This document shows positions 42,031 through 59,466 of a stretch of DNA of 64,000 nucleotides, piece by piece. Made by a program: the position numbers and the translations under genes. The DNA is from an uncultured Chlamydiae bacterium (GTDB lineage: Bacteria > Chlamydiota > Chlamydiia > Chlamydiales > SM23-39): NCBI GenBank assembly GCA_963828125.1, contig CAWHDP010000002.1, forward strand, positions 576,001-640,000. Reading direction: 5' to 3'. Position 1 is the first letter of the stretch. The number at the start of each line of letters is the position of its first letter. The notes beneath the pieces are model-generated. The model worked only from the letters and a program-made list of their open reading frames with translations, had not been told where the DNA came from and ran no database searches.

Positions 42031-42816
42031 CGGCTTACTGGCAGTAACCGTCCTAGATATGTTTCAGTAGCATTTTTGATAGAAGCGTCATCATCTTGAG
42101 AGCGAGGCATATCTTCCCAAACCGGAACTCCCCAGTTTCCTTCACCATGAACCAATTGACTGTCATCCTTGGTGATTAGATTGCTGTGAATGGTGCCGAT
42201 AAGATTATTTTCTCTGATGACAGCGTGAATGATACTCCCGGAACAAGGAGCGTGAATACTAGAGCCTTTGAGTGGCTTACCATTCCATAGACAAACTCCG
42301 ATTAGACTGCCGGGAGCAAAACACTGGAATGAAAGGAGTGTAAGAGCCAGCCGTTCCTTTGAAATCGTTCGAGATGGTGCAGTAGCAGCGTTATCGAAGA
42401 GAGTGTGATTATTTCCTGAGGCAAGTGCCAGGTCGAGCTTACTGGTTTCCGCTTTTGCACTGAGAACTTCATCGCCTCCCTCTTTTTTGGATTTTTTCTT
42501 TGTTTTACTGTTATCGAGCGAAAGACCTTCCAGTTGTAGAAATCGAGTGCGCTCTCCGAATAATTCAAATTTATCGCTGAACTTTTGTAAATAGCTCTGG
42601 GAGAGAGACGCAATTTGCTCTCGGCATTTCCCCCATTCATCATAAGTTTTTGGACCGTTTAAAGCGGCTTGTGCCACACAGATCAGCAAGCGCATAACGG
42701 ATATTCGCTCATGCGGCAACGCATTCAAATCACGTATTTTATGGCCTAGAGCAAATGCATCATCCAGGCTTACCAGAGAAGTTTTTCCATCTTGAAAAAC
42801 AATAGGTATCCAGGGA

Positions 42817-43895
42817 TCATTCACAAGATTCATCTTCAAAATCCATATTCGTTGTTTTTATAGGGTTGGATCGAGAGCAAATAGTTATGCCTTCATCTAT
42901 GCTCCAGAAAAGCTGAGTGCGATCATTGGGTTCTGCAAAGATCGCCTCGTTCTTATCTACAATTGCCACTGCGCAACACCCTTGCACATAGCCAGCGAAC
43001 CCATCAGGTCGTTGAGCGCACGCCGCTGTGACAGCCCTATGCGGTAGGCGAACAAGGTTTTCGTGAATTGCGCGAGCGATATCCACACGTCTATCACCCG
43101 GATAAATCGTAAATTCTTTCCCATACAAAGGCATTATCTGTATGCCCTGATCGGTTCGTTTGATTGTTTTGACGAGGAGAAGAGATGCTGTTAATTGATC
43201 GCCCCATCGCGTTGCAATACCTTCGTTTTCCGTATCGTCTAGAGTCGGATCTGCTTCGACACGTGCGACGGACGCAGCAATAGCCCTCATTTCAGCACAT
43301 CGCTCTTGAATTTCATTGAAAAACTTTCTCCAGGCAGCAGGCTCTGGTTTAATGGAAATATTCGAGTACGTTCCATGTCTCAGGAAACAACGTGGATCGA
43401 TCTGGTCTTTCATGTCTCCACAATCGTCCGATACGCTGAAATAACATGTCGGTTGGCGCTATATCAGTGATGAGGAAATCGGCATCGATATCGATACTTT
43501 GTTCCACAATTTGAGTTGAAACAAGCACACATCCACGAGGTCGCTTTTCACTGGATTTACCTAGACACTCTATCCACTTTTCTTCCAACTGCTCGCGGCG
43601 CCAATAAGGGAAGCGGCTATGAAGTAGACCTATTTCGGGGTCATTTTCACCTTGGATTGCCTTTAGTTCGCGCCAAGACTCCTGAGCTTCTGCTACGGTA
43701 TTTCGAATCCAAAGAACGCAAGCCCCCTTTTTTGCCCGTTCTAAACATTCGGTAGCTAATTGAGGGACAGACTGAGTTACATACTTTATGCAGATATCTT
43801 TAGGCTTTGGTGCTTCAATCTCAGACTCAATCACACAGCCATCTGAATACGCCGCTGAGAGAAGGGGATACGAGGTCGAAAGTCGATCAGGAGCA
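42817..43895 (-). pseudogene. cas3: Cas3 helicase, C-terminal fragment (frameshifted, 5' part lost)
   Basis: WIRNTVAEAQ, LLHSRF, VSTQIVEQSIDIDADFLITDIAPTDMLFQRIGRLWRH; immediately upstream of cse1. Confidence 0.9.
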
Positions 43896-44040
43896 ATAGC
43901 CGCAGCACAGGGCGCTTCCAATATGGAACTTCGTACTGCCATGGGACACAAAACTCTTCAGATGCTTTATGGTGTTATCTGCCTCATTTCCGCGCTGTGT
44001 TATTATGATCTAACAGATCAAATCATGAGAGAATTTTGGA
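43896..44040 (+). pseudogene. Fused micro-fragments of integrase (43896-43967) and abiEi (43969-44040)
   Basis: AAAQGASNMELRTAMGHKTLQML followed by 72 nt nearly identical to 37529-37600. Confidence 0.8.
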
Positions 44041-45253: not shown

Positions 45254-45898
45254 CTATTCAAGATCAGAAAATCTTTTCCATACAACAAATCCTTCCATAT
45301 CGTAAGCACCGATTACAATCAGAGTTGCCTTTAAAGCAATGTTTTGTAACTGCTCAGAAGTCACATTTAAATCGAATCCAGAATTTGTCTCTGAAATAAT
45401 ATTCATGTAATACCATTGAGCATCTGAATAATGAATCATCTTTTCTGCAATTTCTTGAGAGAATTCACCTTCCTTGATGTATAGATAAACCTCTTCATGA
45501 AAATAAAAAATATACTTCTTTATCTCCGATCTAATCGGATCCGATCTATGATGGACCATATCTTCAAAAAAGCAAGATTGCCCTGGCTGTAATATACTTT
45601 TTAAATAAAGAGCTAATTGATGAACAGAATGTGCTTTTTTTCTACCAGGATATAATCCCCCTTGAAAAAAGACATCCTCTAATGGATTTACTGCCAATAT
45701 GCCCCCAGCTTGGAATTCATGAATTTTTGTTCTATCCGCTGAGGGGTGAAGTAAAGCAAAAAATGAACCTTCCTTAAAGTCGAGGTTCATCAATAATTCT
45801 CGTGCTAAAGTGTGTCCATCTTGAAGTTGATCCGTTACATATCGAAATGTCTGTTCAAATTTCAATGGAAATATTTTTATTTCTACATTCACTGCCAA
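45254..45898 (-). CDS. Putative immunity protein for RHS-D
   Basis: Start overlaps the toxin stop; AT-rich; ends IGAYDMEGFVVW. Confidence 0.75.
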   Translation of the reverse strand: MAVNVEIKIFPLKFEQTFRYVTDQLQDGHTLARELLMNLDFKEGSFFALLHPSADRTKIHEFQAGGILAVNPLEDVFFQGGLYPGRKKAHSVHQLALYLKSILQPGQSCFFEDMVHHRSDPIRSEIKKYIFYFHEEVYLYIKEGEFSQEIAEKMIHYSDAQWYYMNIISETNSGFDLNVTSEQLQNIALKATLIVIGAYDMEGFVVWKRFSDLE

Positions 45899-48800
45899 CT
45901 CCCATTAGGAAATAAATCATAAGGAATTCCATTGGGATCTTTATATCCCCAGTGGGGACCTTTTGGATCTGGGTGCCACAAGTCGGGATGAAGTTTTTCT
46001 CCTGTATCAGGATTCAACCAATTGCCCTTGCCACTTTCTGGAGAACCTTTGCCTCGCCATTCAAAACCCTCTCCAGGACATTTTGATGGATCAGATCCTA
46101 AATCTTCTCCATTAAAGCGGGGCGGTTGTTTGGTCGCTTCTTTCCATTGCGGAGCATAAACATCAGTATTTTTCCAAGAGATATTAGGCGCTTTTATATC
46201 TTGCGCATGACAAGCAGTCGTTGCGAGCCCAAGTCCCATTAAAGCTAGTCCAGTCTTCGTTGTCACTCCCAACCCGACAGTGAATCCACCAATGGTAGCC
46301 ACCTCAAGGGCAAAACCACCCGCTATAATAGCTCCCCCTAAAACAATTTCCCCTAATCCAAGAAGATACCCTCCAACACTTTCTCCAGTAGGATCTTGAT
46401 AACGAAAGGGATTATTGAAAACGTACTGGTACAGATTTGAATGATCCTCAGCTCCAATTGGATCTGGAGTCAACCAACGTCTTAAAGTGGGATCATAATA
46501 ACGCTTACCGAAGTAGACTAGTCCTATTTTAGGATCATACCTCTTTCCAGCATACGCATAGGGAATCTGTTCAGAAAGACCTAATCCGAAAACATCGCAA
46601 TCATTCTGCTTGAAGATCTCCGTTGTTTTCCAATCAATGAGGAAGCGGGTGATCCCTTGGACATCCACTATCGGAGCGTAAGGCGTTTTGTTAATTTCAA
46701 TAGCTACAGGAGTAGAGAGTCCAGGAATTTTAAGCTCTTTAGGCTCTCCGTTTTCAAAAGCTCCTATTTCTTCATCGCCAATAGAGAGAAAAGCAGTCTG
46801 TCCTCTTTGAAACCTCCTTCCTAGAGCATCGTATACGGATGTTTCCCCTCCCGATTCAATTAGTTGGTCAAACTCATCATAGACAAATCCGGGCCTGACG
46901 AAGTTTCCATTTAGATCATAGCTAAGCCCTGCGATTTGATTAAGGGCATCAACAGTCATCGACTGACCATTTAACTCTTGGAGGTTGTAGTGAAGGTCAT
47001 AAACGGCCGTAAATCGTCCAGACTCGGAGGTCATTTGCGACTGTGAATCATAGGTGTAACTGGTATCTCCTCTTCTAACGAGATTCCCGGATGGATTATA
47101 GGCGGCAGTTTCTGTGTAATAAGGGGTATTTTGGCTGATTTTTCTTCCCATTCGATCATATTCGAAATTTGTTTGGAAAAATCCTGTACTTAAGCGAGGA
47201 TTGCCTTTTGGATCATATCGATCGTAGGTATGGGAATAAGCTTCAGTGCCATTTTCAGAAACTCTAGTAACCATTTTCAGGAAAGGGCCTTCATAATGGT
47301 ATTCGATTCGAGTTTGATCAGGCAGTCTTCGCATTAAGGGACGATCCCAATCATCATACTCGCTCTCTTGCCACAGACCATTAGACCATTCTTCTCGCTG
47401 GATATTCCCGAAAGCATCGAATTTTCTCGAAAACCCCGTTCCCCCGATCACTCGATCCAGCGCATCATATCGAAATTCCCGAGTTCCCTCTTTTTCAAGG
47501 CGTCCCTGAGTATCATATTCATGAAGTATTACGGTTCCGTCGGGCTTTTGTTTGATCAAAAGTCGATCGCCTGGAGTATAGGTCCAATTGGTGGTTCGAG
47601 TCCCCGCCTCCTTAATCGATTGCTTTTTTCCGTTTAGCGTGTAATCAAATGTAAGATGATCCTGTTTCTTTAAACGAAAAAGCTTATCATACTCAAACTC
47701 CGCTACTACCTGACCGGCCACTTCCTTTTTCAATAACTGCCCTTGAGGATTATAAGTCTCGACTGTCTCGATTCCCATCGGGTCTGTAATCTTTGTCAAG
47801 AGAGTTTGAGGTCCCTTTTCGTAGCGGATCTTAAGTCTATGACCTTCTGCATCGGTTTTCTGAGTCAGACGATCGTGGGCATCATAATGGAATGTTGTGA
47901 TCCCACCTTGCTCAATGGTGGCGACATTACCCCCCTCATCATAGGTCCAAAGAAAAGTCAGAGCGTTATCCACTGATTTCTCTCGTATCCGCCCTAACGA
48001 GTCGTTCGTATATTCGATTCGACGTCCCCCTCTCTCTTCCCAAGCTAAGAACCCAAGAGGATCATAGCCATAGCGGCTAATCCGATTTTGGCGTTTCTCC
48101 TCAATTTTTCGGCCTACGAGATCATATTGATACTCGGTGACAAAACCTTCGGCATCGATCATTTTATAGAGATTGTAGCTATCATTGTGGAAGGTGGTGG
48201 TAGCTTCACCCACTGTTTTTTCTTTTATGCGGCTGAGAGCATCATAGGTGTAAGCGGTTACTAGCCCATCTGCATCTGTATGGGATTTGAGCAGGCCGTT
48301 AGGGAAGTAATCGAACACCTCTTCTCCCCCACAGGGATGAAGGATGGTTGTGAGACAGCCGTAGCTGTTGTAAGTTTTTGCAGTTTTGATCTTATATGGA
48401 TCGATTTTCTCTTTTTCTCTTCCAAAGGCATCAAAGATGATTTCTGTGATGGCCGAGGGCTCTTCGATCCGATCTGGTTTCCCATGCACAGGGTCGTAAT
48501 GATACGTTATTGTATAGCCCAGGTAATCTGTCTTTTCGATCAGCTCATCGGATGCATTGTAGTCAAATCGAGTCTCTTGTTCGCCCTCATTGAGGACTTT
48601 AAGGCGACCTTTTGTATCGAATGTGCGTCTAATGATGAGGCCGTTTGAAACGGGTTCTTCATAAAAACATCTGCCTCTTGGGTCATATTGATAAGAAGCC
48701 AGCTCTCCAATGGGGTTCGTTTGATTAAGGAGTTCCCCTTTTTCATTATAGATTCGCTCAATAGTGTAACCGATTTTTCCATCTGAACCAAAATGCTCTT

Positions 48801-50448
48801 CCCTATTCGTATTCCCCCAAATATCGTATCCATAGTGAATTTTATGGATAAGGTCGCCCTTCCAATCGCTTTTTTCCTCCCACTCAACTCGATGCAAATG
48901 AGGATGGCTCTGATAAAGGGTATAGGTTGTTCTTGTCTTCCCTTCTTCCTCTTTTTGCATGAGATTGTTGGCATTATCATAAGAATAGATTGTCCTTCGG
49001 AGCTGTTTACCTGATTCCAAAGTCGTTTTAGAAGTGATAAGTCGCGTGTCGCCTAAGTATGTAAATGCATACGCAAGGCCATCGTCGTATTCTTCAAAAA
49101 TAAGGCGGTTCTTATCGAATTTACGCCTTATGCCAAAAACCCCGAAATCTCCTTCGGCTTTTTCTAGAGTAGCATTTCCAGCAGCATCGCATTCGAATCG
49201 TTTGGCGATGAGAAGCTTGCCCTCCCCATCTAGGGTTTCTATGCTTTTGATGTGTTGCTTGTGATCATACTCGAAGGTTTTCCTATTGACTTGCTTGCCC
49301 TTAAACCAATTTTCGATTGCCTCCAGCAGTAAAAACTTATTGAACCGGTATACAGTTTGCACGCCATCTGGATGAATGACCGTTGTGGAGCCGCTTTTTT
49401 TTCCTGCAACAGCTGGGTCATAAGAAAAGGAAAAAGATGCTGAAGGATTCGAAAAGGTTTGAATACGAGAAGGCACGTTTTTATTTTGAAAATAGGTACA
49501 CGCGACTGGATAGTCCTTTGCATCATAAGAATTGAGAAGAGTTCTCTCGTTGTACCCAACGGTATTTGTATAAACAGGGTTTGATCCTCTAGTCATTACT
49601 GGAAATTGAAAACTAGCCTTCTCCTTATAGCCATCTTTTTTGTATTCGCCTTTAATCTCTCTGGTCTCATACACAAGATCGACTTTTCTTCCATCTGAAC
49701 CTAAATAATGGTTACCGCTGACTCTCGTTATTGAAGCATAAACAAGTTGTCCGGTTGGATCAGATGATAAAATTTTGAATAGTCCCTGATCGTTGTACTC
49801 ATATCGAATTACCTTTCCATTTGAGAGCAACTCTTTTTCAAGCCGATAGATTCCTGCATACCGTTTAGAATATTGGCGCTGAACCCCATCCGGCCAAACG
49901 ACCTTTACCAAATTACCCTCTACGAGAAGCTCGATGTTGCGAATATCGGCTGAACTAGTTGGATTCTCTCCCCTCAGATTGCTGCATCCAAAAGAGCTAG
50001 TTTTTAGAACGCCCTTATTTCCTTGAATCTGAAACTCTAAAACAAAACCCTGCGGATCGCGAACTTGAAAATAGCTGGAATTACGGTTATAGCCAGCCCA
50101 AAGATGTGGATTGACAACCCATCCTCTTGTTTCAAGCTGATGAAGAGCCTTGCCCAACATGAGTTGATCTAACTTATCTTTATCTTCATAGCGACCAAAA
50201 ATCTGGGGCGGTACATAGGTCCTTTTCAAAAGAAGATCTTGAGCTCCCCTTACTTGCAGATCTATTTCGCTGATAGAAATCTGACCAGACGAAGCAGAAA
50301 CATATCCATCAATTAAAAAATCAGAAGTCAGAGAAAAAATTTCCTCTGGAGAAGAAGGCGTAACATCATCAAAAGAGCCTGCAAAGAGACGAGCCCCAAA
50401 ACCCACAATGAAAAACCAGCGCATAAAAAATCCTAAAAAAGAAACCAT
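45889..50448 (-). CDS. RHS toxin (RHS-D), paralog of RHS-A with an Ntox37-like tip
   Basis: Colinear with 5236..9729 up to HAQDI. Tip PGEGFEWRG..GNWLNPDTGEKLHPDLWH..GPHW resembles polymorphic toxin 37 (recognised from memory). Confidence 0.92.
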   Translation of the reverse strand: MVSFLGFFMRWFFIVGFGARLFAGSFDDVTPSSPEEIFSLTSDFLIDGYVSASSGQISISEIDLQVRGAQDLLLKRTYVPPQIFGRYEDKDKLDQLMLGKALHQLETRGWVVNPHLWAGYNRNSSYFQVRDPQGFVLEFQIQGNKGVLKTSSFGCSNLRGENPTSSADIRNIELLVEGNLVKVVWPDGVQRQYSKRYAGIYRLEKELLSNGKVIRYEYNDQGLFKILSSDPTGQLVYASITRVSGNHYLGSDGRKVDLVYETREIKGEYKKDGYKEKASFQFPVMTRGSNPVYTNTVGYNERTLLNSYDAKDYPVACTYFQNKNVPSRIQTFSNPSASFSFSYDPAVAGKKSGSTTVIHPDGVQTVYRFNKFLLLEAIENWFKGKQVNRKTFEYDHKQHIKSIETLDGEGKLLIAKRFECDAAGNATLEKAEGDFGVFGIRRKFDKNRLIFEEYDDGLAYAFTYLGDTRLITSKTTLESGKQLRRTIYSYDNANNLMQKEEEGKTRTTYTLYQSHPHLHRVEWEEKSDWKGDLIHKIHYGYDIWGNTNREEHFGSDGKIGYTIERIYNEKGELLNQTNPIGELASYQYDPRGRCFYEEPVSNGLIIRRTFDTKGRLKVLNEGEQETRFDYNASDELIEKTDYLGYTITYHYDPVHGKPDRIEEPSAITEIIFDAFGREKEKIDPYKIKTAKTYNSYGCLTTILHPCGGEEVFDYFPNGLLKSHTDADGLVTAYTYDALSRIKEKTVGEATTTFHNDSYNLYKMIDAEGFVTEYQYDLVGRKIEEKRQNRISRYGYDPLGFLAWEERGGRRIEYTNDSLGRIREKSVDNALTFLWTYDEGGNVATIEQGGITTFHYDAHDRLTQKTDAEGHRLKIRYEKGPQTLLTKITDPMGIETVETYNPQGQLLKKEVAGQVVAEFEYDKLFRLKKQDHLTFDYTLNGKKQSIKEAGTRTTNWTYTPGDRLLIKQKPDGTVILHEYDTQGRLEKEGTREFRYDALDRVIGGTGFSRKFDAFGNIQREEWSNGLWQESEYDDWDRPLMRRLPDQTRIEYHYEGPFLKMVTRVSENGTEAYSHTYDRYDPKGNPRLSTGFFQTNFEYDRMGRKISQNTPYYTETAAYNPSGNLVRRGDTSYTYDSQSQMTSESGRFTAVYDLHYNLQELNGQSMTVDALNQIAGLSYDLNGNFVRPGFVYDEFDQLIESGGETSVYDALGRRFQRGQTAFLSIGDEEIGAFENGEPKELKIPGLSTPVAIEINKTPYAPIVDVQGITRFLIDWKTTEIFKQNDCDVFGLGLSEQIPYAYAGKRYDPKIGLVYFGKRYYDPTLRRWLTPDPIGAEDHSNLYQYVFNNPFRYQDPTGESVGGYLLGLGEIVLGGAIIAGGFALEVATIGGFTVGLGVTTKTGLALMGLGLATTACHAQDIKAPNISWKNTDVYAPQWKEATKQPPRFNGEDLGSDPSKCPGEGFEWRGKGSPESGKGNWLNPDTGEKLHPDLWHPDPKGPHWGYKDPNGIPYDLFPNGSWQ

Positions 50449-50492: not shown

Positions 50493-52055
50493 CAGCAGCT
50501 CCCGCGAAAAGTGGGAGCTGCGAAAAATATAGAGATTTTTTAAACGCCTAAAATTTTTAGACAACCTCCTCCGATAGACCATCGTCCCGTCTTCAGAAAT
50601 TCAGAAAATACACCCTCTTGAACCAAAGATCCTTTTGAACTTTATTCTCTAGGAAGTATTCGCTAGTTCTACGAACCTTACCCCGCGCCTTTTACCCATT
50701 GCGGCATATAAAGCAGCCCATGAGTCAACGTGGAACTCTAAAACATACATGCGCAATTTTTCCCAAAATCGAGTCTTTCTTTTTGCCCTTTCGAGCGCTT
50801 CTTGCAATAGGCCACAACATCTTTGTTGTACCTGATCAATCAAAAACGCCAAAAACATAAGCAGCCCGAAGACATGACTCAGGTGCTTGTAGCCATGTCC
50901 AAAATTGTGTTCAAACTGATAGCCTTGGTTCTTGAGGGTGTTAAATGTCTCATTCTCAATGTGCCATCTCGCTCTACCTGCCCTTGCAAGGGGATATACG
51001 TTGTCTTGTGTAACTAACAGATCGGTGATCCATGAGAAATGGGTCACTTTGCCTTTTTTATCGCGTATCACGCAATCAATAAAATTAACCGACAGATCGT
51101 GATTCGAATCATTTAGTGGAACGCCATTATAAAACTGCACTTCGATCGATTCCTTTTTAGTTGTGATGGTCTTTTTTTCTAAAGGAACTCCCTTCAACCA
51201 TTCAAAAAGACTCGGATTGCCCGTAGGGTTGACGTTGACTATAAAGTGAGCCCCTATCTCTAAGATACGTCGAAGAGACGGTCCTTTTGCGCTTAATGCA
51301 TCCTCCGTAAAAATCGCCTCGAGGCGAGGATGTTCTCGCTGAAAGTCTACTAAAAGTCGTTTCATAGCATTCTGTTCACAATCGTTCTTACTAGATCCAT
51401 CGGCTTTTGAAATGGGTTCTGGACATAGAGGAAAAACTTCTTTCTGGTCGGGATGTACTACAACAGCCCCCAGCATTTGGTGATAATAGGTGATCTGCCC
51501 ATCCTTATGATGTTTTTCACAGCAGTTCTCACAATGAACGGTGTTGGAGGAAAACATTCCTGTGCCATCGCAAGCAATCACCAGATATTTACCTAGGATT
51601 TTATAATCATCCAACACCTTCCCTCGTTGAAGGAGAGAAAAAACAGAAGTAAAAGCCGGCCTGAGAGCTCTTGGGTCCACCTCATCCAATCTCGCTCTCA
51701 TAGAGGTGTCGCAGGGTGCGTCATTGACGCCGTAAAGGGTTTTGAGGTTATGTCTGAGTGCTGCCTCTTCCTGAGAATCATCGAATTGAAGAAGGGAAGG
51801 GAATTTTAATCCGAAAACAGCCAACCCAGACATCAAACAGTCTGACAGGGGAATCCGTGCTTTCACGCCCCGTGGACTTTTTTGTGGTTCTGGAACTTCT
51901 TCGAAAATAGAACGCACTTTTTGCAACATCCCGGTTGCGGAGAGTTGCTTTTTCTCAACGGAATGAATACCCATAGCCTTTTCTTAACCTTTGCGAAAAA
52001 ATAGTTAAAAAAAGAGTCTACCTCATTGCGAAAATTTATTTAACGGGAATTGCTG
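50493..52055 (-). mobile_element. Insertion sequence with DDE transposase (ISNCY-like)
   Basis: Inverted ends CAGCAGCTCCCG / CGGGAATTGCTG; no matching TSD. Confidence 0.8.
50649..51974 (-). CDS. DDE transposase
   Basis: IACDGTG, TEDAL, RARWHIENETFNTLKNQGY.FEHNFGHG. Confidence 0.92.
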   Translation of the reverse strand: MGIHSVEKKQLSATGMLQKVRSIFEEVPEPQKSPRGVKARIPLSDCLMSGLAVFGLKFPSLLQFDDSQEEAALRHNLKTLYGVNDAPCDTSMRARLDEVDPRALRPAFTSVFSLLQRGKVLDDYKILGKYLVIACDGTGMFSSNTVHCENCCEKHHKDGQITYYHQMLGAVVVHPDQKEVFPLCPEPISKADGSSKNDCEQNAMKRLLVDFQREHPRLEAIFTEDALSAKGPSLRRILEIGAHFIVNVNPTGNPSLFEWLKGVPLEKKTITTKKESIEVQFYNGVPLNDSNHDLSVNFIDCVIRDKKGKVTHFSWITDLLVTQDNVYPLARAGRARWHIENETFNTLKNQGYQFEHNFGHGYKHLSHVFGLLMFLAFLIDQVQQRCCGLLQEALERAKRKTRFWEKLRMYVLEFHVDSWAALYAAMGKRRGVRFVELANTS

Positions 52056-52080
52056 CTTGATCGGATTAAAAGGCAGGAGA

Positions 52081-52298
52081 TATGTGCATGCCAATATGGT
52101 TATGAACCTGGCCACAAGAGCTAGGGAAATCTTTAAAAGTTCTGAAGTGGACGAAAAACGTCAACTTTTAGATTTAGTATTTCAGAACTTGCAATTGAAA
52201 GACGGAAATCTCTCATTTTCAGTGAGATAACCGTTCTTAACGATGATGGATTTTAAGAATCGTCCGAAAGAATGGGGGCGGCTGGACGGATTCAGAAC
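52081..52298 (+). pseudogene. Large serine recombinase, C-terminal remnant
   Basis: Manual translation ..LATRAREIFKSSEVDEKRQLLDLVFQNLQLKDG..*PF..EWGRLDGFR, typical of large serine recombinase tails; rest removed at the IS end. Confidence 0.7.
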
Positions 52299-52845
52299 GT
52301 GCGACACGAGGTCGCTGGAGGGAATTGTCTTGAGACCACTCCTTATGCGCGCGGTCAAAACGGAAAACCTGATCAAATACCTGAATGTGAAAATTCAGGG
52401 GTGGGTCAATTATTACGGCACTGCGTAGCAAAAGCGACGTTTAACTACTTAGACAATAGCATATTCTGGATAGTTTGGAAGTGGGCCAAAAGGCGACATC
52501 AGAACAGGGGGGCATCCTGGATCCGGAAAAGGTATTACACTACCTTGGGACTCAGAAAGTGGTGCTTCTACTCGAAGGTGAAAGCGGGAAAACAAGAATC
52601 CCGTATTCTTCTCACTCTGGCACAACGCACGAAGATCGAAAGACACGTGAAGGTCAGGTCGGAAGCTTCGCCGTATGATCCCGATTTTAAGGAATATTTC
52701 ATAAAACGGAAAGGAGAAAAGATGAGAAAAAAAAATGATAGCTGGGTGATATGAGCCTTAAGAGAGGCTTGAGCCGTATGATGGGAAACTATCACGTACG
52801 GTTCTTAGAGGAGGAAACTAGGGCAACCTAGTTTCCTTACTCAAC
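52299..52845 (+). mobile_element. Group II intron, internally deleted
   Basis: 5' GTGCG; domain V GAGCCGTATGATGGGAAACTATCACGTACGGTTC (52771-52804); domain VI hairpin ending AC; only the maturase X region of the ORF remains (LNVKIQGWVNYY / RHCVAKATF..WKWAKRRH). Confidence 0.9.
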
Positions 52846-52847
52846 TT

Positions 52848-53333
52848 TTGATTGGCAGAAATTTTCCTCGTTACGTTACCATTTGCCAAAAGATTTCCTC
52901 ACAAATAGGCAATATGGTCAGATTGTACCGTTGGCTTCCGATCATGCTCGCCTATACCGCTGCTGACAGCGCTCAGCCTCCAGCTGTCGTTCATTATGAG
53001 CCAAGCATTGTACAGCTGACGGGAACTTTGAAAGAGTGCGTTTGCCCAGGACCTCCCGAATACGAAAACATAGAAATGGGAGATGCTCCAGAACATATTT
53101 TTGTATTGATGTTGGATCATCCCGTACATGTAAGAGAGCTCGAACCTAAAAAAGATTTTTTAGATGAACCCGAAGATAACGTTACTGAAATTCAAGTTGC
53201 AGCTTCTTCAAGCGAAGTACAACCAATTCTAGGTAAACATGTTAAAATCTCAGGCACGTTATTCCATGCCATTACGGCTCATCACAGAACAGAAGTCATC
53301 ATGATCAATGACTCCATGAATATAATAGAGTAA
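52848..53333 (+). CDS. DUF4431-like exported protein (true start probably downstream)
   Basis: LTGTL..PGPPEY..LMLDHP..GTLFHAITAHHRT. Confidence 0.65.
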   Translation: MIGRNFPRYVTICQKISSQIGNMVRLYRWLPIMLAYTAADSAQPPAVVHYEPSIVQLTGTLKECVCPGPPEYENIEMGDAPEHIFVLMLDHPVHVRELEPKKDFLDEPEDNVTEIQVAASSSEVQPILGKHVKISGTLFHAITAHHRTEVIMINDSMNIIE

Positions 53334-53408
53334 AATTTAAACATGGAAATCGTTGATTGCTTAACAAAAACGCCTTATAATTGACTCCTACATAACGAGG
53401 TAGATTTT

Positions 53409-53817
53409 ATGGCGAACAAAAAGTACGTCTGGATTAAAGCCGAAGGAAATGCTGACCAGTCCATTACGTACCATGACCAAGATGGCAATAAGTTAACCCG
53501 CTATCTCGATCCAAAGGCTAAAAATCCACCGAGAGGAACTAAATCTTGGCGCCACCAAAACCCTGGAAATATTAATCATGGCGATTTTTCTAAGCGTCAC
53601 GGAGAAATTGGGTTCGCCTGTTATCCAAGCCCCTACGATCCTAAGAAAAAAAATCTGTTTTGCCATCTTCCCTGACTATGAAACAGGTAGACTTGCATTC
53701 GCAGCGCTTCTGAAAACGGAAAGATTCATTGATCTGACCCTAAATCAGTTTCCTCGATTCTATACAGGCCTTCTTAAAGATAGCCTGCCGGACACCACCT
53801 CAATCTATGCCAGATAA
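53409..53817 (+). pseudogene. NPGN-motif lysozyme-like protein, frameshifted and truncated
   Basis: SWRHQNPGNI, frameshift at an A-run near 53650, then FAIFPDYETGRLAF; similar to the N-terminus of 15714..17171. Confidence 0.6.
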
Positions 53818-53946
53818 AGTTGTTGGAGTGAAATTCTTAAAACACAAAGCCACAGAATTTCTAGTATACTTGGTGCAGCTGATATAAATTCGTCTTAAAA
53901 CACCTTTTGAAAAATAGATAATTAACATCAAATTTGCTATCAATAG

Positions 53947-54102
53947 GCCAGTCTTAAAAAAGAACTTGTCGATGAAATATTAAGCCTATCAAAAACCCGC
54001 ATGATACGGCAGACATTGGCTGATAAACTTGATATCGGGGTAGCTACTGTATATAGGGCATTGAAAGAACCTGGCAATAAAGACAATTACAAGAACCTCT
54101 AA
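53947..54102 (+). pseudogene. Resolvase-type HTH remnant
   Basis: Manual translation ..LADKLDIGVATVYRALK.. Confidence 0.5.
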
Positions 54103-54148
54103 ACCAAAGATTTACTGTCTCTTTCCCCCTTTTTATTTAAGCAGAATC

Positions 54149-54178
54149 TTGACATCATGTAACCATATAGGTTACAAT
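54149..54178 (+). promoter_or_regulatory. Sigma70-type promoter overlapped by a palindromic operator
   Basis: TTGACA-N18-TACAAT with TGTAACC-N5-GGTTACA (54158-54176) upstream of higB. Confidence 0.75.
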
Positions 54179-54199
54179 TAAAAGAAATATGGAAATGTA

Positions 54200-54481
54200 G
54201 TGCCGATAAAGTCGTTTAAGCACAAAGGACTGAAGAAGTTCTTTGAAACCGATAGTAAATCTGGAATTCAGCCGGCACATGCGAAAAGGATTGGGCTTAT
54301 TTTAGACTTGCTGGATGGCGCTCTGATAGCCCAAGATATGAATTTTCCTGGCTCAGATTTCCACTTGTTGAAGGGAAATTTAAAGAATTTTTACTCCGTT
54401 CATGTGAATGGTAATTGGACAATTATCTTTCGGTTTGAAAATGGAGATGCTAATGATGTGGACCTAATAGACTATCACTAA
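54200..54481 (+). CDS. higB: HigB-like toxin
   Basis: IKSFKHKGLKKFFE..HLLKG..YSVHVNGNWTIIFRF..DLIDYH. Confidence 0.9.
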   Translation: MPIKSFKHKGLKKFFETDSKSGIQPAHAKRIGLILDLLDGALIAQDMNFPGSDFHLLKGNLKNFYSVHVNGNWTIIFRFENGDANDVDLIDYH

Positions 54482-54492
54482 AACGAGGATTT

Positions 54493-54837
54493 ATGATTAG
54501 AAAAAGAAAACCTTCGCATCCCGGAGAAATCCTTGATGATCTGTATATCAAACCTCTTAATTTAAATTTGCAAAAACTTGCAGATAGACTTGGGATCGCG
54601 CGCAACACTTTGTTTAAGATTCGGACCGGATTAGCAAGCGTAACTCCTGCTATTGCGCTTTCATTAGCAGAAGCTTTTGACACTACGCCCCAGCTGTGGA
54701 TTAACTTACAAACGAATTATGATTTGTGGATTGAAGCGAAAGAACACGAACATGTTCGCCCCATCGTAAAAAATGGCGAACTTCTTCCAAGCGAAAGGAA
54801 TATCCAAATCGCCGCAAGCCCACGAAGCCATAAATGA
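54493..54837 (+). CDS. higA: HigA antitoxin
   Basis: HPGEIL..LA..LGI..TPAIALSL..TTPQLWINLQTNYDLW. Confidence 0.92.
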   Translation: MIRKRKPSHPGEILDDLYIKPLNLNLQKLADRLGIARNTLFKIRTGLASVTPAIALSLAEAFDTTPQLWINLQTNYDLWIEAKEHEHVRPIVKNGELLPSERNIQIAASPRSHK

Positions 54838-54956
54838 GCGCACAAAACAAATCAGTAAGAAAAGAGTTTTCGGCTTGGCCTTGAGTTAAAGGTAAGCTTG
54901 CAGAAACGTCCTAGAGTCCTCACAACCAGCGTTATTCACATCAAACGTAACCAATG

Positions 54957-55244
54957 CTAAAAACTCCCCCGAAATTGCCCTGCACCCTTGAATTGGCGAG
55001 GATCAATTGAATTGATATGCTTAAAGCGCCCAAGAGATGCGCCTTCAAGCGATCCGATAGGCTCCTTCATGGAAATTCTGTTCCCAAAGTATGAGAAAAC
55101 ACTGTAGCGCAAGGCATCAATCGCTTGGTCCGCCCTTTTGATGGGGGCGTCTTCGCCCCGTTCTGCTGCTTTTGGGTCCCAGCAATATCCTTGTATCTCT
55201 CCAATCAAGTTACGGCAATTGCGACAAATCTTTAAATCCCCCAT
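54957..55244 (-). pseudogene. Phage terminase large subunit, C-terminal fragment
   Basis: CRNLIGEIQGYCWD..GEDAPIKRADQAIDALRY resembles the PBSX-type terminase nuclease end. Confidence 0.65.
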
Positions 55245-55577
55245 TGAAAGATACGAGGAGGAGGAAATGCTGCTTCTACGGGCTTATTACAAGAGCGGGC
55301 GTTGGAATCTGTTAAAAAAGATGGCTTATGAGGGAGGTTTGTCCTATGCAGCGTAGCTTTTTAGGCGGCTACCCAGAAAATGGGAATGCGCCCTGTCCAA
55401 CAGCCAAAATTAACTCCTTATTTTTCCCTGTCAAAGTCTCAGTACTCTTATTCAAGGGTATCAATTCTCGATCTCGACGTAAAATATACTGACGCAGAGG
55501 GAAAATTCTGTTAATTAGGAGACGAGCTTCTTCTATCTGACTGCTGTCAGAAGCAACAACCACTGCTATCATGATCA

Positions 55578-55874
55578 TCAAGCCAAACTGATTTTTAAAT
55601 GTCTACCAAGAGCGCGGGCAGCTTTTGCGAATGTCCGCAGCGTAGATGGGCATTCGGGATCTAAAATGCGATCAACAGCAGACCGACTTGTTTCCATCCG
55701 TTCGGCAAGTTCTGCTTTATCGATTCCCTGTTTCTTCATCTCTTTTTCCATTTGAAAAACGAAAATCTTTTTGGCGACTACTTCTTCGATTTCTTCCAAG
55801 ATTCCCTCTTCTTTTAAGAAATCATCAAAATTGGAGCCAATATGCTTGTTTTTTTTCATATTCATCCTCTCCAA
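55578..55874 (-). CDS. XRE-family HTH antitoxin
   Basis: HIGSNFDDFLKEEG..KAELAERMETSRSAVDRILDP..TLRT. Confidence 0.85.
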   Translation of the reverse strand: MERMNMKKNKHIGSNFDDFLKEEGILEEIEEVVAKKIFVFQMEKEMKKQGIDKAELAERMETSRSAVDRILDPECPSTLRTFAKAARALGRHLKISLA

Positions 55875-56219
55875 ACCTCTTTTGCTCTTTTTAACCCTAT
55901 CTCTAAATCCTGGGAAGGCGTCTTCTGCGTCTTCTTAATAAATCCATGCACCAAAACCATTTGTCCCCCATGCATTACAAAGAGAACCCTGGCAATTGTA
56001 TTCGGAAGAGTACTGCGCACTTCCCACAATCCCTTTCCTAAATTCCTAACAAGGGGCATACCCAAAGGCCATCCTTCTTGCACCATTTTGATATCCTCTC
56101 CGATCGCGCGCCTTTCCCCCCTTCTTTAAGGATTTTAACCATTCCCTGACCGGTTCCTTTCCATTTTCTTGCTTATAGAAGTCAACAGAGATAATTTTTC
56201 GGGGCGCTAAATCAGACAT
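55862..56219 (-). pseudogene. RelE/Gp49-like toxin with a frameshift in a G-run
   Basis: FYKQENGKEPVREWLKSL, shift near 56116-56121, then IGEDIKMVQEGWPLGMPLVR..GLWEVRS..HGFIKKTQKTP. Confidence 0.8.
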
Positions 56220-56254
56220 GACGTCCTTTTACCTTCAAATTCTAACACTGATTT

Positions 56255-56268
56255 TACCAAATTTGGTA
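56255..56268. promoter_or_regulatory. Perfect palindrome, putative TA operator
   Basis: TACCAAATTTGGTA about 35 bp upstream of the toxin start. Confidence 0.55.
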
Positions 56269-56343
56269 CAAAAAAAAGCAAGAGCCTGATATTTCAGAAC
56301 TCTAACCCATTCAAATAAAACATATTAAAATTTCGTGTCCGGA

Positions 56344-56382
56344 GAATGGGGGCGGCTGGACCCATTCAGAACTTTTGACTGG
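56344..56382 (+). repeat. Serine-recombinase att-like repeat, copy 2
   Basis: GAATGGGGGCGGCTGGACCCATTCAGAACTTTTGACTGG; compare 52270-52298 + 52846-52855 and 57168-57203. Confidence 0.8.
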
Positions 56383-56495
56383 GCAAAGCTATCAAACACT
56401 CTGGGTTTCAAACACTTTCCTGTTCATCAACAATTCGAGAGGCTAGTCAAGAGATAATATTCCTGTCAGAAGCATTACTCCTAGCATGCTATTTT

Positions 56496-56909
56496 TCAGA
56501 CAACCTCAAGCTTCGGTGTAAAATTAGAAGGACTGTAAATTGAATTCCTTTGAACATCTGGATTCATCCGTTGTCTATCATTCAGCTCTCTTTCCCAATT
56601 TTCCTTATTGTTTAGGGCATCAGAAGCAGCATCTACAACCATCGCAGTCCCAGATAAAATTAGCGCAGTGCTAGTTCCTGCGCTGAATGGAGCAGCCAAA
56701 ACGCCTACAAGAATTTGACCTACACCAAACCAATATTTCAATTTCACTCCACTAGGCTGCTCTTGTTTGCATAAGCGAGCCATTCCTATAAAACCAACCT
56801 GTTCTACGGAAGAAGCAGGCAAAGCTTTATGATACACCTGGAGGACAAAACTCATCATAGGATCGGAAAGCTCTTCAGCAGAAGGCACCCCGCTAGTATA
56901 GATCCCCAA
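56496..56909 (-). CDS. Hypothetical protein fragment with a Gly/Ala-rich hydrophobic hairpin
   Basis: ORF with WFGVGQILVGVLAAPFSAG..; start uncertain, probably 5'-truncated. Confidence 0.4.
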   Translation of the reverse strand: MGIYTSGVPSAEELSDPMMSFVLQVYHKALPASSVEQVGFIGMARLCKQEQPSGVKLKYWFGVGQILVGVLAAPFSAGTSTALILSGTAMVVDAASDALNNKENWERELNDRQRMNPDVQRNSIYSPSNFTPKLEVV

Positions 56910-57055
56910 AGAAGCGCAATTCCTTTGCGCATTTTTTTTGAGTCATTCATCTGCCAAGCTGTTTTTAGCATTAATATGCTGGGAGGTAACGCAAAAAACG
57001 AAAACAATAAAAGCCCTAAACGGACTATAGAAAAAACGATGTATCCTTGTTCCAT
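56855..57055 (-). CDS. Small membrane protein
   Basis: 66 aa, two hydrophobic segments, AGGA upstream of ATG. Confidence 0.45.
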   Translation of the reverse strand: MEQGYIVFSIVRLGLLLFSFFALPPSILMLKTAWQMNDSKKMRKGIALLWGSILAGCLLLKSFPIL

Positions 57056-57167
57056 GAAAATCCTATCTTTGAGGAAGAGAAATATATAGAAACAAAAATT
57101 ATATTGTCAAACCATCACAAAAAAATAAATTCATATCTCTTTGAAGATAAGTAGATTGAAAGAACTT

Positions 57168-57203
57168 TGGGGGCGGTTGGACGGATTCAGAACTTTTGAT
57201 TGG
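57168..57203 (+). repeat. Serine-recombinase att-like repeat, copy 3
   Basis: TGGGGGCGGTTGGACGGATTCAGAACTTTTGATTGG. Confidence 0.8.
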
Positions 57204-57466
57204 AGAAAGTTACAAGACAATAATCGTCATTTGAACTGGCTGTTCCTTCAAAAAATAATAGTTTCGACTGGAGCGGTTTGCAAATGAGTCTTCCATCGCC
57301 GAGAAAAAAATTCCGAAACATCACAATAAGGATTCCTAGCCAAACAGATCTTAAATCGAAGATCGTCATTTCCTAATGCGATAGCTTGGAATTCCGCAAT
57401 GGACAAAGTAGTCTGTATACAGCTTTCTGAAATCGAAACCGCTGCCACAGCTTCTTGCTAGCTTTT

Positions 57467-58750
57467 TTAAGGAGCTTCGTAAGCTGTGTATTTCAGTGAT
57501 TTTCCCCGACATTTATCCGTTGGGTACTTTTGTTTCATTTTCTCAAACTTTTGATACGCGGCTTCAATTGGATCGATCTTGAGCTTATGAGAAAGATAGA
57601 GAACGGCTTTAAACACATCAGCAATTTCGTCTCGAACTTCTTGCAACGTCTTCGAGTCCGGATGGTAACTTTGCTCTTCACTCATCCATCGAAATAAATC
57701 CAAAAGTTCACCTGCTTCTGAAGCAAGATCCATCACTAGGTTTTTCGGAGAGTGAAACGGCTCCCATTGACGTTCTTGATAAAACTCAAGCAAAGATGTT
57801 AAGACTTTCTCATGAGGCACTTGCAGTTTTATCTCCGTTCTCCTCAAACGAGGAATAAATTCACTAAACGCATCTTTTACCGCCTTTGGATTTTCCACCC
57901 AGCCCATATGCCCAGCATCTTCTATAAAAAGTATTTTGATGTTGGGACGATGAAATCGTTGGTCTTTTTCAAAAAGAGAAAAAGGACAAATGCAATCATA
58001 CTTGCCACCGACAATTAAGGTAGGAGTTTGGTTAGGAATCCAACTGGCAGAAAAATTAAGCTCTATTGCTTTTCTCTGCCACCAAACTGCAGGCTGCCAT
58101 TGGAAAGGAACGTGAGAAAGCAATTCTCTCCCCCTTTCTAAAGTCTCCTTTGGAAAATAGTACGGTAGGCAAGCACTCAAGGCAGTATTGAAAGTTTCTT
58201 GATTTGGATGGAGGGTAAACTCCGTCATTTCCTGCGTTAAATCAGGCACATCAAACTGCTTAGAATAGTTTACCGCTTCTTCTAGCCATAAGGTTGGCGC
58301 AGCATTCAAAATGACAAACCCTTCGAGGTAATTTTCCAGCTCTGGAAACATCAAAGGAAACATCCCTCCAAATGAATGACCTACTAATACAGGATGATCA
58401 AATCGTCTGACAATCTCAGGAAAAAGTTCAATCCATTGATCAAAATTTTCTGCAAAATCATTCGGTACATTCGCTCCATTTCCAGGCAAATCGATGAGCC
58501 ACACGTTTCCAGGCAAATCTAATTGATCGACTAAACTTTTAAGATAACTTGAGTCCGCCCCTGGTCCGCCAGGAAAAAATAGCCAGTTGTACGGTTGCCC
58601 ACCATTTGTTTGATACAACTCATAACGAACCTGATTTGAATCATAAGAATAGTGGCTCATTTTTGGTCTCTCGTTTAAATTTTGTATTTCTGAACACAGC
58701 ATCATTGGAATGGCCAAATAACATAGTAGGGAAAATATTCTTGTCTTCAT
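57467..58750 (-). CDS. Alpha/beta hydrolase fused to a MazG-like nucleotide pyrophosphohydrolase
   Basis: PGGPG, GHSFGG, GKYD, AGH; then ERQWEPFHSPKNL..EAGEL..DEIADV. Confidence 0.85.
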   Translation of the reverse strand: MKTRIFSLLCYLAIPMMLCSEIQNLNERPKMSHYSYDSNQVRYELYQTNGGQPYNWLFFPGGPGADSSYLKSLVDQLDLPGNVWLIDLPGNGANVPNDFAENFDQWIELFPEIVRRFDHPVLVGHSFGGMFPLMFPELENYLEGFVILNAAPTLWLEEAVNYSKQFDVPDLTQEMTEFTLHPNQETFNTALSACLPYYFPKETLERGRELLSHVPFQWQPAVWWQRKAIELNFSASWIPNQTPTLIVGGKYDCICPFSLFEKDQRFHRPNIKILFIEDAGHMGWVENPKAVKDAFSEFIPRLRRTEIKLQVPHEKVLTSLLEFYQERQWEPFHSPKNLVMDLASEAGELLDLFRWMSEEQSYHPDSKTLQEVRDEIADVFKAVLYLSHKLKIDPIEAAYQKFEKMKQKYPTDKCRGKSLKYTAYEAP

Positions 58751-59211
58751 TTTTCAATCGCTATCAATATATCTACTTCTTTTGAAGTTCCTGAAAACTT
58801 GTGGCCGTAAACCTCATAATCCCCTGCATAGGTCCGCTTTAAATCTGAACGCCAAATATTACCCCAGGTATCGATTAGACTTTTGGGGAAATCACCCACG
58901 GCGCAATAAAGAGCAAAAGTTGACTCCGGAACTGTCTTACCAACCATTCCGTCAGGAATTGCCTCTAAAGAATTCACAACACACCCAATCACGCAAGAAT
59001 AGGGTTGGGTGTAATCCCCTTCATAGTCACAGTAGAGAGCAATTACTTCATCTGAAGCCTTGTTGGGAATCTTACTCTGGATATTTTCTGCATAAAATTT
59101 TTGCCAAAGCTGAGGAATATCCTGCGAGCCTGCATTAGGATCATTTGAAGTGCGACATTCAATGCCGACAACCATCATTCGAGGCTTGTGAACCTTTGTA
59201 AAATTTTGCAT
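58747..59211 (-). CDS. GyrI-like small-molecule-binding protein
   Basis: VVGIECRTSN..IPQLWQKF..ALYCDYEGD..WGNIW..RTYAGDYEVY. Confidence 0.85.
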   Translation of the reverse strand: MQNFTKVHKPRMMVVGIECRTSNDPNAGSQDIPQLWQKFYAENIQSKIPNKASDEVIALYCDYEGDYTQPYSCVIGCVVNSLEAIPDGMVGKTVPESTFALYCAVGDFPKSLIDTWGNIWRSDLKRTYAGDYEVYGHKFSGTSKEVDILIAIEK

Positions 59212-59384
59212 TAGTCGTTCCTTGTTAGTATTTATTTCTTCTGCTGATTTATGGGCCTATAGAATGAATAATTGACTTCTGTCTCAAGGAAAAAGTGGGA
59301 CAGGGGTTGGACAAATCTGATAGTCAATCGATTGCCTGACCTTCTTTTTTGATCTTATTTCACTCATTTTTTACCTATGGAAAA

Positions 59385-59466
59385 TGGGGGCGGGCGGACT
59401 CGAACCGCCGAAAACCGAAGTTGGGGGATTTACAGTCCCCTGCAATTGCCGCTATGCGACACCCCC
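59385..59466 (-). tRNA. tRNA-Tyr(GTA)
   Basis: Full cloverleaf with long variable arm; anticodon loop CTGTAAA; GGTTCGAGTCC. Confidence 0.97.

What the first reader, a model, noticed from the sequence alone, without database searches (positions are those of the whole stretch)
52270..52860. Group II intron inserted precisely inside a recombinase att-like repeat
Seen: removing 52299-52845 (GTGCG...AC) gives TGGGGGCGGCTGGACGGATTCAGAAC|TTTTGATTGG. This differs by one base from the empty repeat at 57168-57203 and restores the recombinase tail WGRLDGFRTFDW. Known: some group II introns target recurring recombination sites, such as integron attC. Inference: an intron lineage that may home to serine-integrase att sites and so travel with these elements. 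This copy has lost most of domains I-III and the RT domain, so it is probably inactive.
Basis: partly seen in the sequence, partly recalled or inferred. Interest (0 to 1): 0.75.

Follow-up and report, generated by a model that had tools for sequence, protein, structure and literature searches.

The report
Intron homing to recombinase attachment sites
This is a dead, shortened copy of a self-splicing jumping intron whose family lands at one exact spot in the attachment sites that a DNA-integrating enzyme uses to add gene islands at tRNA genes of chlamydia-like bacteria, so one genetic parasite has specialised on another's docking site.

Summary
Confirmed and extended. Window 52299-52845 is a group II intron remnant: 45 nt of the 5' end fused to the last ~500 nt of a 2136-nt IIB1/CL1-like intron found intact in a relative (L023). 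EBS1, EBS2 and the RT are gone, so this copy is dead. The repeat is the attachment site of a large serine recombinase (LSR) family that integrates at tRNA-Tyr, tmRNA and tRNA-Leu 3' ends; its constant arm also encodes the LSR tail (D-x-F-R-T-F-D-W). All 14 of 14 distinct 5' junctions of the lineage, found by intron sequence alone, lie at the same base of that arm; 8 of 10 3' junctions continue into it. EBS1 (6/6), EBS2 (4-5/5) and EBS2a pair with the arm. Downstream cargo differs, so these are repeated homing events, while more distant introns use other targets. Whether the intron rides on or blocks the islands is unresolved because the crossover point is not fixed. I found no paper describing this target in nine searches. 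Earlier scan notes describe only the reverse nesting (LSR elements inside introns).

The parts
50493..52055 (-). Multi-copy insertion sequence (441-aa transposase-like ORF 50649-51974) that cuts off the LSR gene at 52056
   Evidence: 100% copies elsewhere in the genome, in two pieces; no Pfam or NCBIfam hit; IS label is inference
52056..52298 (+). 3' remnant of a large serine recombinase gene, with an internal TAA at 52228-52230, running into the att site
   Evidence: 52081-52287 is 90% identical to residues 428-496 of an intact 533-aa open frame carrying Resolvase, Recombinase and Zn_ribbon_recom domains
52273..52298 (+). att site, left part = intron 5' exon: tRNA-Tyr-3'-end-like segment plus constant arm; IBS2a 52285, IBS2 52286-52290, IBS1 52293-52298
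52299..52845 (+). Internally deleted group II intron (547 nt), IIB1/CL1-like lineage; non-mobile remnant
52299..52343 (+). Retained intron 5' end (GUGCG, base of domain I); deletion junction at about 52343/52344 removes EBS2, EBS1, DII, DIII and the RT
   Evidence: blastn to L023; alignment
52344..52754 (+). Maturase (X domain) and C-terminal remnant of the intron-encoded protein, frameshifted and with a stop; no endonuclease domain
   Evidence: PF08388
52771..52845 (+). Domain V (34 nt, AGC triad, 52771-52804), domain VI and the AC 3' end
   Evidence: Rfam RF00029, 64.2 bits
52846..52855 (+). 3' exon: distal part of the constant arm, encoding the (T)-F-D-W end of the LSR tail
52848..56129 (.). 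Cargo of the intron-bearing island unit: DUF4431 protein, HigBA-like pair (54200-54837), Gp49/HTH pair (55578-56129)
   Evidence: Pfam
56347..56382 (+). Empty att repeat 2, with a vestige of the LSR tail upstream
57168..57203 (+). Empty att repeat 3 (1 base from the reconstituted occupied site)
59385..59466 (-). tRNA-Tyr, the integration target at whose 3' end the tandem island array was built
   Evidence: Rfam, ARAGORN; relatives' LSR genes abut tRNA-Tyr

Best explanation
A lineage of endonuclease-less IIB1/CL1-like group II introns in environmental chlamydiae retrohomes to one position in the element-side arm (P') of the att sites of a tRNA/tmRNA-targeting LSR family. Shown from sequence: (1) the LSR gene points toward the tRNA 3' end and its last codons cross the att site, so the P' arm encodes its tail; (2) tandem integrations leave arrays of these att sites at tRNA-Tyr, tmRNA and tRNA-Leu; (3) EBS1, EBS2 and EBS2a pair with the 14 bases of the arm that are shared by all three att types, and insertion is always at the same base and in the LSR sense direction; (4) occupied sites carry unrelated cargo, so homing happened many times; (5) the window copy is a decayed, internally deleted member. 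Inferred: mobility is by reverse splicing and, lacking En, replication-fork priming (general knowledge, recalled); the arm is a recurrent, low-cost target inside mobile islands; splicing would restore the LSR tail wherever an LSR gene is joined to the arm.
For: 14 of 14 distinct 5' junctions within 3 mismatches of the 31-nt intron start end in the arm motif; of 20 rows at 9-12 mismatches, only degenerate L042 shows it (2 nt offset). The metagenome scan keyed on intron sequence only gave 9 loci, all 9 at the arm (7 distinct). 8 of 10 distinct lineage 3' junctions match TTTYGAYTGG with at most 1 mismatch, all 10 start TTT. EBS1 6/6, EBS2 4-5/5, EBS2a C with G-14 in 14 of 14 exons; EBS2/EBS2a positions validated on 9 introns with different targets (cognate 40 of 54, permutation mean 20.9, 1 of 20000). 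L017 has a compensatory EBS2 change giving 5/5. IEPs of att-sitting copies form one clade, support 0.99, 82-90% identical to L023 versus at most 68% for 15 others. Sixty bases after the arm share only 10-26 of 60 among 7 occupied sites. LSR tails run into tRNA-Tyr, tmRNA, tRNA-Leu, tRNA-Asn or into the arm.
Against: Own-genome copy at C2:982923-983454 has a 3' exon 5 mismatches from the consensus arm and no 5' end, and L111 is 3 mismatches off. Five D5/D6-only ends in G041 have unrelated 3' flanks; they differ from the lineage before D5 and no IEP was found there, so they are unassigned, not shown to be foreign. L041 has a lineage-like D6 but a divergent 5' end and a non-att 5' exon. One contig piece in run X5 leaves the reference after +1. 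Only one full-length copy was found; no splicing or mobility data. Kin genomes are not independent samples.
Confidence: 0.86

Rival explanations
1. One ancestral insertion into one element's attP, later spread by LSR recombination, which swaps the left arm and so mimics many insertion sites; no continuing homing.
For: The crossover lies left of the intron, so left flanks would vary by recombination alone; the window and C1 copies are one duplicated event.
Against: Sequence right of the arm, which recombination would not swap, is unrelated among 7 occupied sites (10-26 of 60). Leu-type occupied sites carry the same arm variant as Leu-type empty sites and Tyr/tmRNA types carry theirs. Empty arms are common.
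Confidence: 0.05
2. The intron retrotransposes loosely into any EBS-compatible site and only insertions in dead att relics survive selection.
For: The own genome holds 39 sites meeting relaxed EBS1/EBS2/EBS2a/+1 rules, only 5 of them att sites; most copies seen are decayed; host genomes are gene-dense.
Against: 14 of 14 5' junctions are att sites although IS elements and intergenic DNA would be equally neutral; EBS matches the arm consensus exactly and is unchanged across the lineage.
Confidence: 0.06
3. Same homing, but it is best read as ordinary homing into a conserved mobile-element gene (the LSR 3' coding end); the att overlap is incidental and insertion simply inactivates the site and fixes the island.
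For: Always sense to the LSR; variation in the 3' exon is mostly at synonymous positions of F-D-W; related introns sit in transposase-like coding sequence (L035/L053/L121, L051). If the crossover is in the T-loop, as reported for Dehalococcoides ssrA islands (PMC3146451, passages), the intron lies about 12 bp from it and would split the half-site.
Against: Only 2 of 14 occupied sites have an LSR tail directly upstream; in the rest the target exists as an att arm without the gene. tRNA T-stems next to LSR genes stay host-paired while att-repeat mimics often differ from the host tRNA, which favours a crossover at the acceptor-stem end, 23 bp from the intron.
Confidence: 0.4

Closest known systems
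Group IIC-attC introns (Leon et al. 2010, PMC3001079; passages read)
   Same: A monophyletic intron lineage inserting into a recurring site-specific recombination site that separates cargo units in arrays.
   Different: Those are class C introns in the bottom strand of tyrosine-integrase attC sites, opposite to cassette genes. This one is IIB1/CL1-like, uses full EBS1/EBS2/EBS2a pairing, targets a serine-recombinase att arm, and is sense to the recombinase whose tail the arm encodes.
IIB1/CL1 introns T.el4h (Th.e.I3, PDB 6ME0) and EcI5 (PMC8643678, PMC12584367; passages read)
   Same: Nearest solved IEP (E=4e-169 versus 6e-44 for the next); 34-nt DV; 5-bp EBS2 at -9..-13 and EBS2a at -14.
   Different: 490-aa IEP with no endonuclease domain found; different target; lineage found only in chlamydial-group genomes and unlabelled metagenome contigs searched here.
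Introns hiding in mobile elements (Waldern et al. 2020, PMC7306698; passages read); RmInt1 in ISRm2011-2 and Ll.LtrB in a relaxase gene (recalled)
   Same: A conserved target inside a mobile element; CL1 is among the classes reported to hide in MGEs.
   Different: The words recombinase, integrase and attC do not occur in that paper's main text. Here the target is the att arm itself, usable at islands of at least three different RNA-gene targets.
Dehalococcoides ssrA genomic islands and DsiB (McMurdie et al. 2011, PMC3146451; passages read)
   Same: About 540-aa serine recombinase overlapping the att site at its 3' end, tandem islands at a tRNA-like gene, a conserved motif beside the direct repeat, many units lacking an integration module.
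   Different: tmRNA only; no intron in the site in the passages read; the chlamydial family uses tRNA-Tyr, Leu, Asn, tmRNA and others.

Membership tests
Group II intron | GUGYG 5' end, AY 3' end, precise insertion without duplication | tested here: met
Group II intron | Catalytic domain V and domain VI | tested here: met
   RF00029 64.2 bits, gathering 40
Group II intron | RT/maturase IEP in domain IV | tested here: met
   In relative L023: TIGR04416 377.8 bits over cut-off 300. Window copy keeps only the X-domain remnant
Active group II intron (window copy) | Domain I with EBS1 and EBS2, intact IEP | tested here: not met
   intron nt about 46-1641 deleted; frameshift and stop
Group II intron | Self-splicing and retrohoming activity | not testable with these tools
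   Four DNA runs laid as contigs showed no intron-skipping joint; no RNA run laid
Subgroup IIB1 / CL1 class | EBS2a-IBS2a Watson-Crick pair at -14 with 5-bp EBS2 | tested here: met
   C:G in 6 of 6 lineage introns that keep the region; G at -14 in 14 of 14 exons. This feature is shared by IIB1 and IIB2
Subgroup IIB1 / CL1 class | IEP falls in the CL1 clade | tested here: inconclusive
   Best solved relative is T.el4h, 566 bits versus 154 or less for others; no tree with a CL1/CL2 reference set was built
Group IIC-attC introns | Class C IEP and RNA (no EBS2) | tested here: not met
   EBS2 present; IEP 566 bits to T.el4h versus 129 to GsI-IIC
Group IIC-attC introns | Target is an integron attC bottom strand | tested here: not met
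   Target is an LSR att arm at tRNA/tmRNA ends
LSR att site | Cognate recombinase with catalytic, recombinase and zinc-ribbon domains | tested here: met
LSR att site | Hybrid junctions: LSR tail + tRNA, LSR tail + arm, host flank + arm | tested here: met
   All three combinations seen
LSR att site | Imperfect dyad around a 2-bp crossover core | tested here: inconclusive
   Scan on 6 sites: 0.35 at the acceptor-stem end versus 0.33-0.34 at other positions; the 6 included 2 doubtful rows
LSR att site | Recombination by the enzyme | not testable with these tools
   needs an assay
Dehalococcoides DsiB-type ssrA islands | Six-gene integration module with DsiA | not tested
   Only the LSR and its att overlap were compared

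The most novel reading that the evidence does not exclude
An excision-gated hitchhiker: the intron reads the outer recombinase-binding motif of the att arm and inserts just beyond it (23 bp from a crossover at the tRNA acceptor-stem end), so the site still recombines. In the integrated island the intron is cut off from the LSR gene; on excision the ends join, the LSR transcript runs into the intron, and splicing both releases the intron RNP and completes the LSR tail. The intron would thus be expressed only when the island mobilises, would ride it to tRNA-Tyr, tmRNA or tRNA-Leu in new hosts, and would make recombinase output depend on splicing.
Probability: 0.3. Interest if true: 0.82.

Novelty: new variant of a known kind. 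Interest (0 to 1): 0.63.

Why it matters
It adds a second, independent case of a retroelement specialising on a site-specific recombination site, this time a serine-integrase att arm read by ordinary base pairing, and it gives a full-length candidate (L023) and a defined 14-nt target that can be assayed directly. The intron also marks which att bases are invariant across a multi-target LSR family, which helps map that family's sites and exposes cassette-like island arrays in environmental chlamydiae. If the intron-bearing site still recombines, it is a new way of coupling intron expression and spread to island excision.

Tried and rejected
Viral-contig scan with a junction pattern gave 3 loci; L101/L102 are a chance match inside a phage head gene and L100 has no intron or LSR similarity; dropped. 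Four further viral-contig scans found nothing. MFE folding of the isolated L023 domain I segment was no better than shuffles (z=0.40), so EBS positions rest on covariation, not on that fold. The dyad scan did not fix the crossover. Four of 22 listed public runs were laid (X2, X4, X5, X6): no joint skipping the intron; contigs of X2 and X5 run into the same 5' exon, most loose ends were not shown (98 hidden), so this adds little. A second intron near a tRNA in L149 (68% IEP identity) has an unrelated 3' exon and is outside the lineage. Plasmid search found no relative above 64% identity among 1502 records. The order-level 3'-end search added one junction (L158). IIC-attC membership rejected. 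Scan look-ups by place and by sequence were empty. The large protein-database searches, structure prediction and complex prediction were not used.

Full report
Observation. The window holds three copies of a 36-nt repeat at 52273 (interrupted), 56347 and 57168. Removing 52299-52845 gives a site 1 base from the copy at 57168 and 3 from that at 56347, and restores the frame ...RPKEWGRLDGFRTFDW. The insert starts GTGCG, ends AC, carries a domain V/VI match (64.2 bits, gathering 40) and a maturase fragment. Genome-wide, 4 sites lie within 7 mismatches of the repeat and the next at 11.

What the insert is. A search of the species-representative genome collection returned 5 loci, among them L023, a record titled uncultured Parachlamydiaceae, with a complete 2136-nt intron and a 490-aa protein. 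That protein has RVT_N, RVT_1 and GIIM domains, no endonuclease hit, passes TIGR04416, and is closest among solved structures to the T.el4h maturase (566 bits; next 154). The window copy aligns only to intron nt 1-49 and 1642-2136, so EBS1, EBS2, DII, DIII and the RT are gone; it also has a 1-nt deletion and a stop relative to a second copy. It cannot splice or move (inference from the missing parts). The own genome has 3 copies: the window copy; a duplicate on C1 with the same LSR tail and deletion, starting exactly at the IS boundary 52056, which is not an independent event; and a 5'-truncated copy on C2 whose 3' exon is 5 mismatches from the consensus arm, 1.2 kb upstream of a tmRNA-type att site.

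What the repeat is. The sequence upstream (52081-52287) is 90% identical to the C-terminus of an intact 533-aa frame in L087 with the three LSR domains. The tail was found in 35 of 103 family genomes. In the loci fetched (30), LSR genes end by reading into the reverse complement of tRNA-Tyr, tmRNA, tRNA-Leu, tRNA-Asn or another tRNA, or into a constant arm encoding D-x-F-R-T-F-D-W. The arm also occurs behind terminator-like host flanks, often in arrays 0.8-4 kb apart next to tRNA-Tyr or tmRNA. These three junction types are what att sites of tandem islands give. The closest described system is the Dehalococcoides ssrA islands, where the recombinase gene dsiB always overlaps the att site and tandem units accumulate (PMC3146451, passages). 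In the window the array runs from 52273 to tRNA-Tyr at 59385-59466.

Test of the homing claim. I collected 5' junctions by intron sequence only: 103 family genomes, 400 order genomes, and one metagenome scan whose pattern lay wholly inside the intron (9 loci). After de-duplication by 40-nt exon, 14 junctions lie within 3 mismatches of the window's first 31 nt, and 14 of 14 end in the arm motif at the same base; among the 20 rows at 9-12 mismatches only degenerate L042 shows the motif, offset by 2 nt; those 20 include chance rows such as L100 and L150. The occupied sites are of Tyr, tmRNA and Leu type. For 3' junctions, 10 distinct lineage ends have at least 10 nt of flank (D6 within 6 mismatches of the window's, plus L006 with a 1-nt indel; L108 dropped as 3 nt only and a duplicate of L111): 8 match TTTYGAYTGG with at most 1 mismatch, L111 has 3 and the own C2 copy 5. 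Against the reading: five D5/D6-only ends in G041 have unrelated flanks, differ from the lineage before D5 and have no IEP to place them, and L041 combines a similar D6 with a divergent 5' end and non-att exon. A tree of 22 IEP rows, several partial, puts the 7 lineage rows in one clade (support 0.99). Distant relatives sit in other targets, two of which read as transposase coding sequence (family names recalled). The 60 nt after the arm are unrelated among 7 occupied sites (10-26 of 60), which excludes spread of a single insertion by arm exchange.

How the target is read. Alignment of domain I places EBS1 (GUUCUG) in the ID3 loop and EBS2 (UACGU or UGCGU) upstream. EBS1 pairs 6/6 and EBS2 4-5/5 with all 14 exons, and the EBS2a base C faces G at -14 in 14 of 14, as described for IIB1/IIB2 introns (PMC8643678, passages). 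The positions are validated on 9 introns with different targets: cognate pairing 40 of 54 against a permutation mean of 20.9, reached by 1 of 20000 shuffles. The pairing covers only the arm bases common to all att types, which explains use of islands at different tRNAs. EBS rules alone admit 39 sites in the own genome, 5 of them att sites, so protein contacts or selection must add specificity.

Consequence for the island: open. The crossover lies between the tRNA discriminator and the GA that begins the arm motif. If at the acceptor-stem end, the intron is 23 bp away, probably outside the half-site (half-site length recalled); in favour, a CGTCC/GGACG dyad centres there, T-stems of tRNA-Tyr genes abutting LSRs stay paired in several different variants, and att mimics often differ from the host tRNA. 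If in the T-loop, as in Dehalococcoides, the intron is about 12 bp away and splits the site; in favour, two host-flank sites in L150 match the host T-stem. A dyad scan was inconclusive. Only 2 of 14 occupied sites have an LSR tail directly upstream, so most copies would be transcribed from the LSR gene only after excision (inference). Laying 4 of 22 listed public runs showed no intron-less joint.

Comparison with what is known. It works like IIC-attC introns in using a recurring recombination site (PMC3001079, passages) but fails that family's defining features. It is a IIB1/CL1-like intron by RNA pairing and best structural relative; a formal class tree was not built. Specialised targets named in a 2025 paper are terminators and start or stop codons (PMC12584367, passages); the neighbourhood survey PMC7306698 does not mention recombinases in its main text (passages). 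Nine literature searches (listings and abstract starts only for papers not named above) found no report of an intron lineage in serine-recombinase att sites. The library lacks most subscription papers, no supplements were read, and the group II intron database was not available, so a catalogued instance may exist. Earlier scan notes (untested) describe LSR elements that insert into intron RT genes, the reverse nesting.

Verdict. Observation confirmed, interpretation supported: a dead copy of a real lineage that homes to LSR att arms (confidence 0.86). New variant of a known kind; interest 0.63. The excision-gated reading has probability about 0.3.

Noticed in passing
window 52273-59466; L150, L151, L092, L093, L096, L109: Cassette-like arrays: short cargo units (0.8-4 kb) without their own recombinase, separated by LSR att repeats at tRNA-Tyr, tmRNA or tRNA-Leu ends; some units end in a copy of the host flank with its terminator-like hairpin (L093, L150). 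Integron-like, possibly cis-mobilisable.
   Followed up: partly
L056-L084: One LSR family, 45-94% identical over its tail, abuts at least five different RNA genes (tRNA-Tyr, tmRNA, tRNA-Leu, tRNA-Asn and one more tRNA type), with a C-terminus that changes between integrated and joined forms.
   Followed up: partly
L109/L110, L108/L111, L026, window 52299-52845: Several independent internal deletions keep both intron ends (for example nt 1-219 plus 2025-2136); only one full-length copy was found.
   Followed up: no
window 52299-52309: The first 11 nt of the intron match 7 of 11 positions of one natural variant of the distal arm they displace (L009 flank), which could leave partial att function; the same 5' end is shared by relatives with other targets, so it is not an adaptation.
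   Followed up: no
L035/L053/L121 5' exons; window 50649-51974: Related introns are inserted in a transposase-like motif that also occurs in the 441-aa ORF of the IS beside the window intron; that ORF has no Pfam or NCBIfam hit.
   Followed up: no
window 42021-43951: Fragments of type I-E CRISPR genes (cse1 and cas3 C-terminus) flanked by two transposase genes.
   Followed up: no
window 45889-50448: 1519-aa RHS-repeat protein with paralogues elsewhere in the genome.
   Followed up: no
window 57467-58750: 427-aa ORF with an alpha/beta-hydrolase N-part fused to a C-terminal part that looks MazG-like (recalled motif, not tested), as cargo of the unit next to tRNA-Tyr.
   Followed up: no
G000 C1:401838-406500: Scrambled duplicate of several pieces of the window island (52056-52650, 53802-53866, 54482-55260, 55261-55394), suggesting IS-driven rearrangement.
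   Followed up: no
G000 C2:949671-950038 and C2:984691: The tmRNA-type att site lies 35 kb from tmRNA in the orientation opposite to that seen in L093, suggesting an inversion.
   Followed up: no
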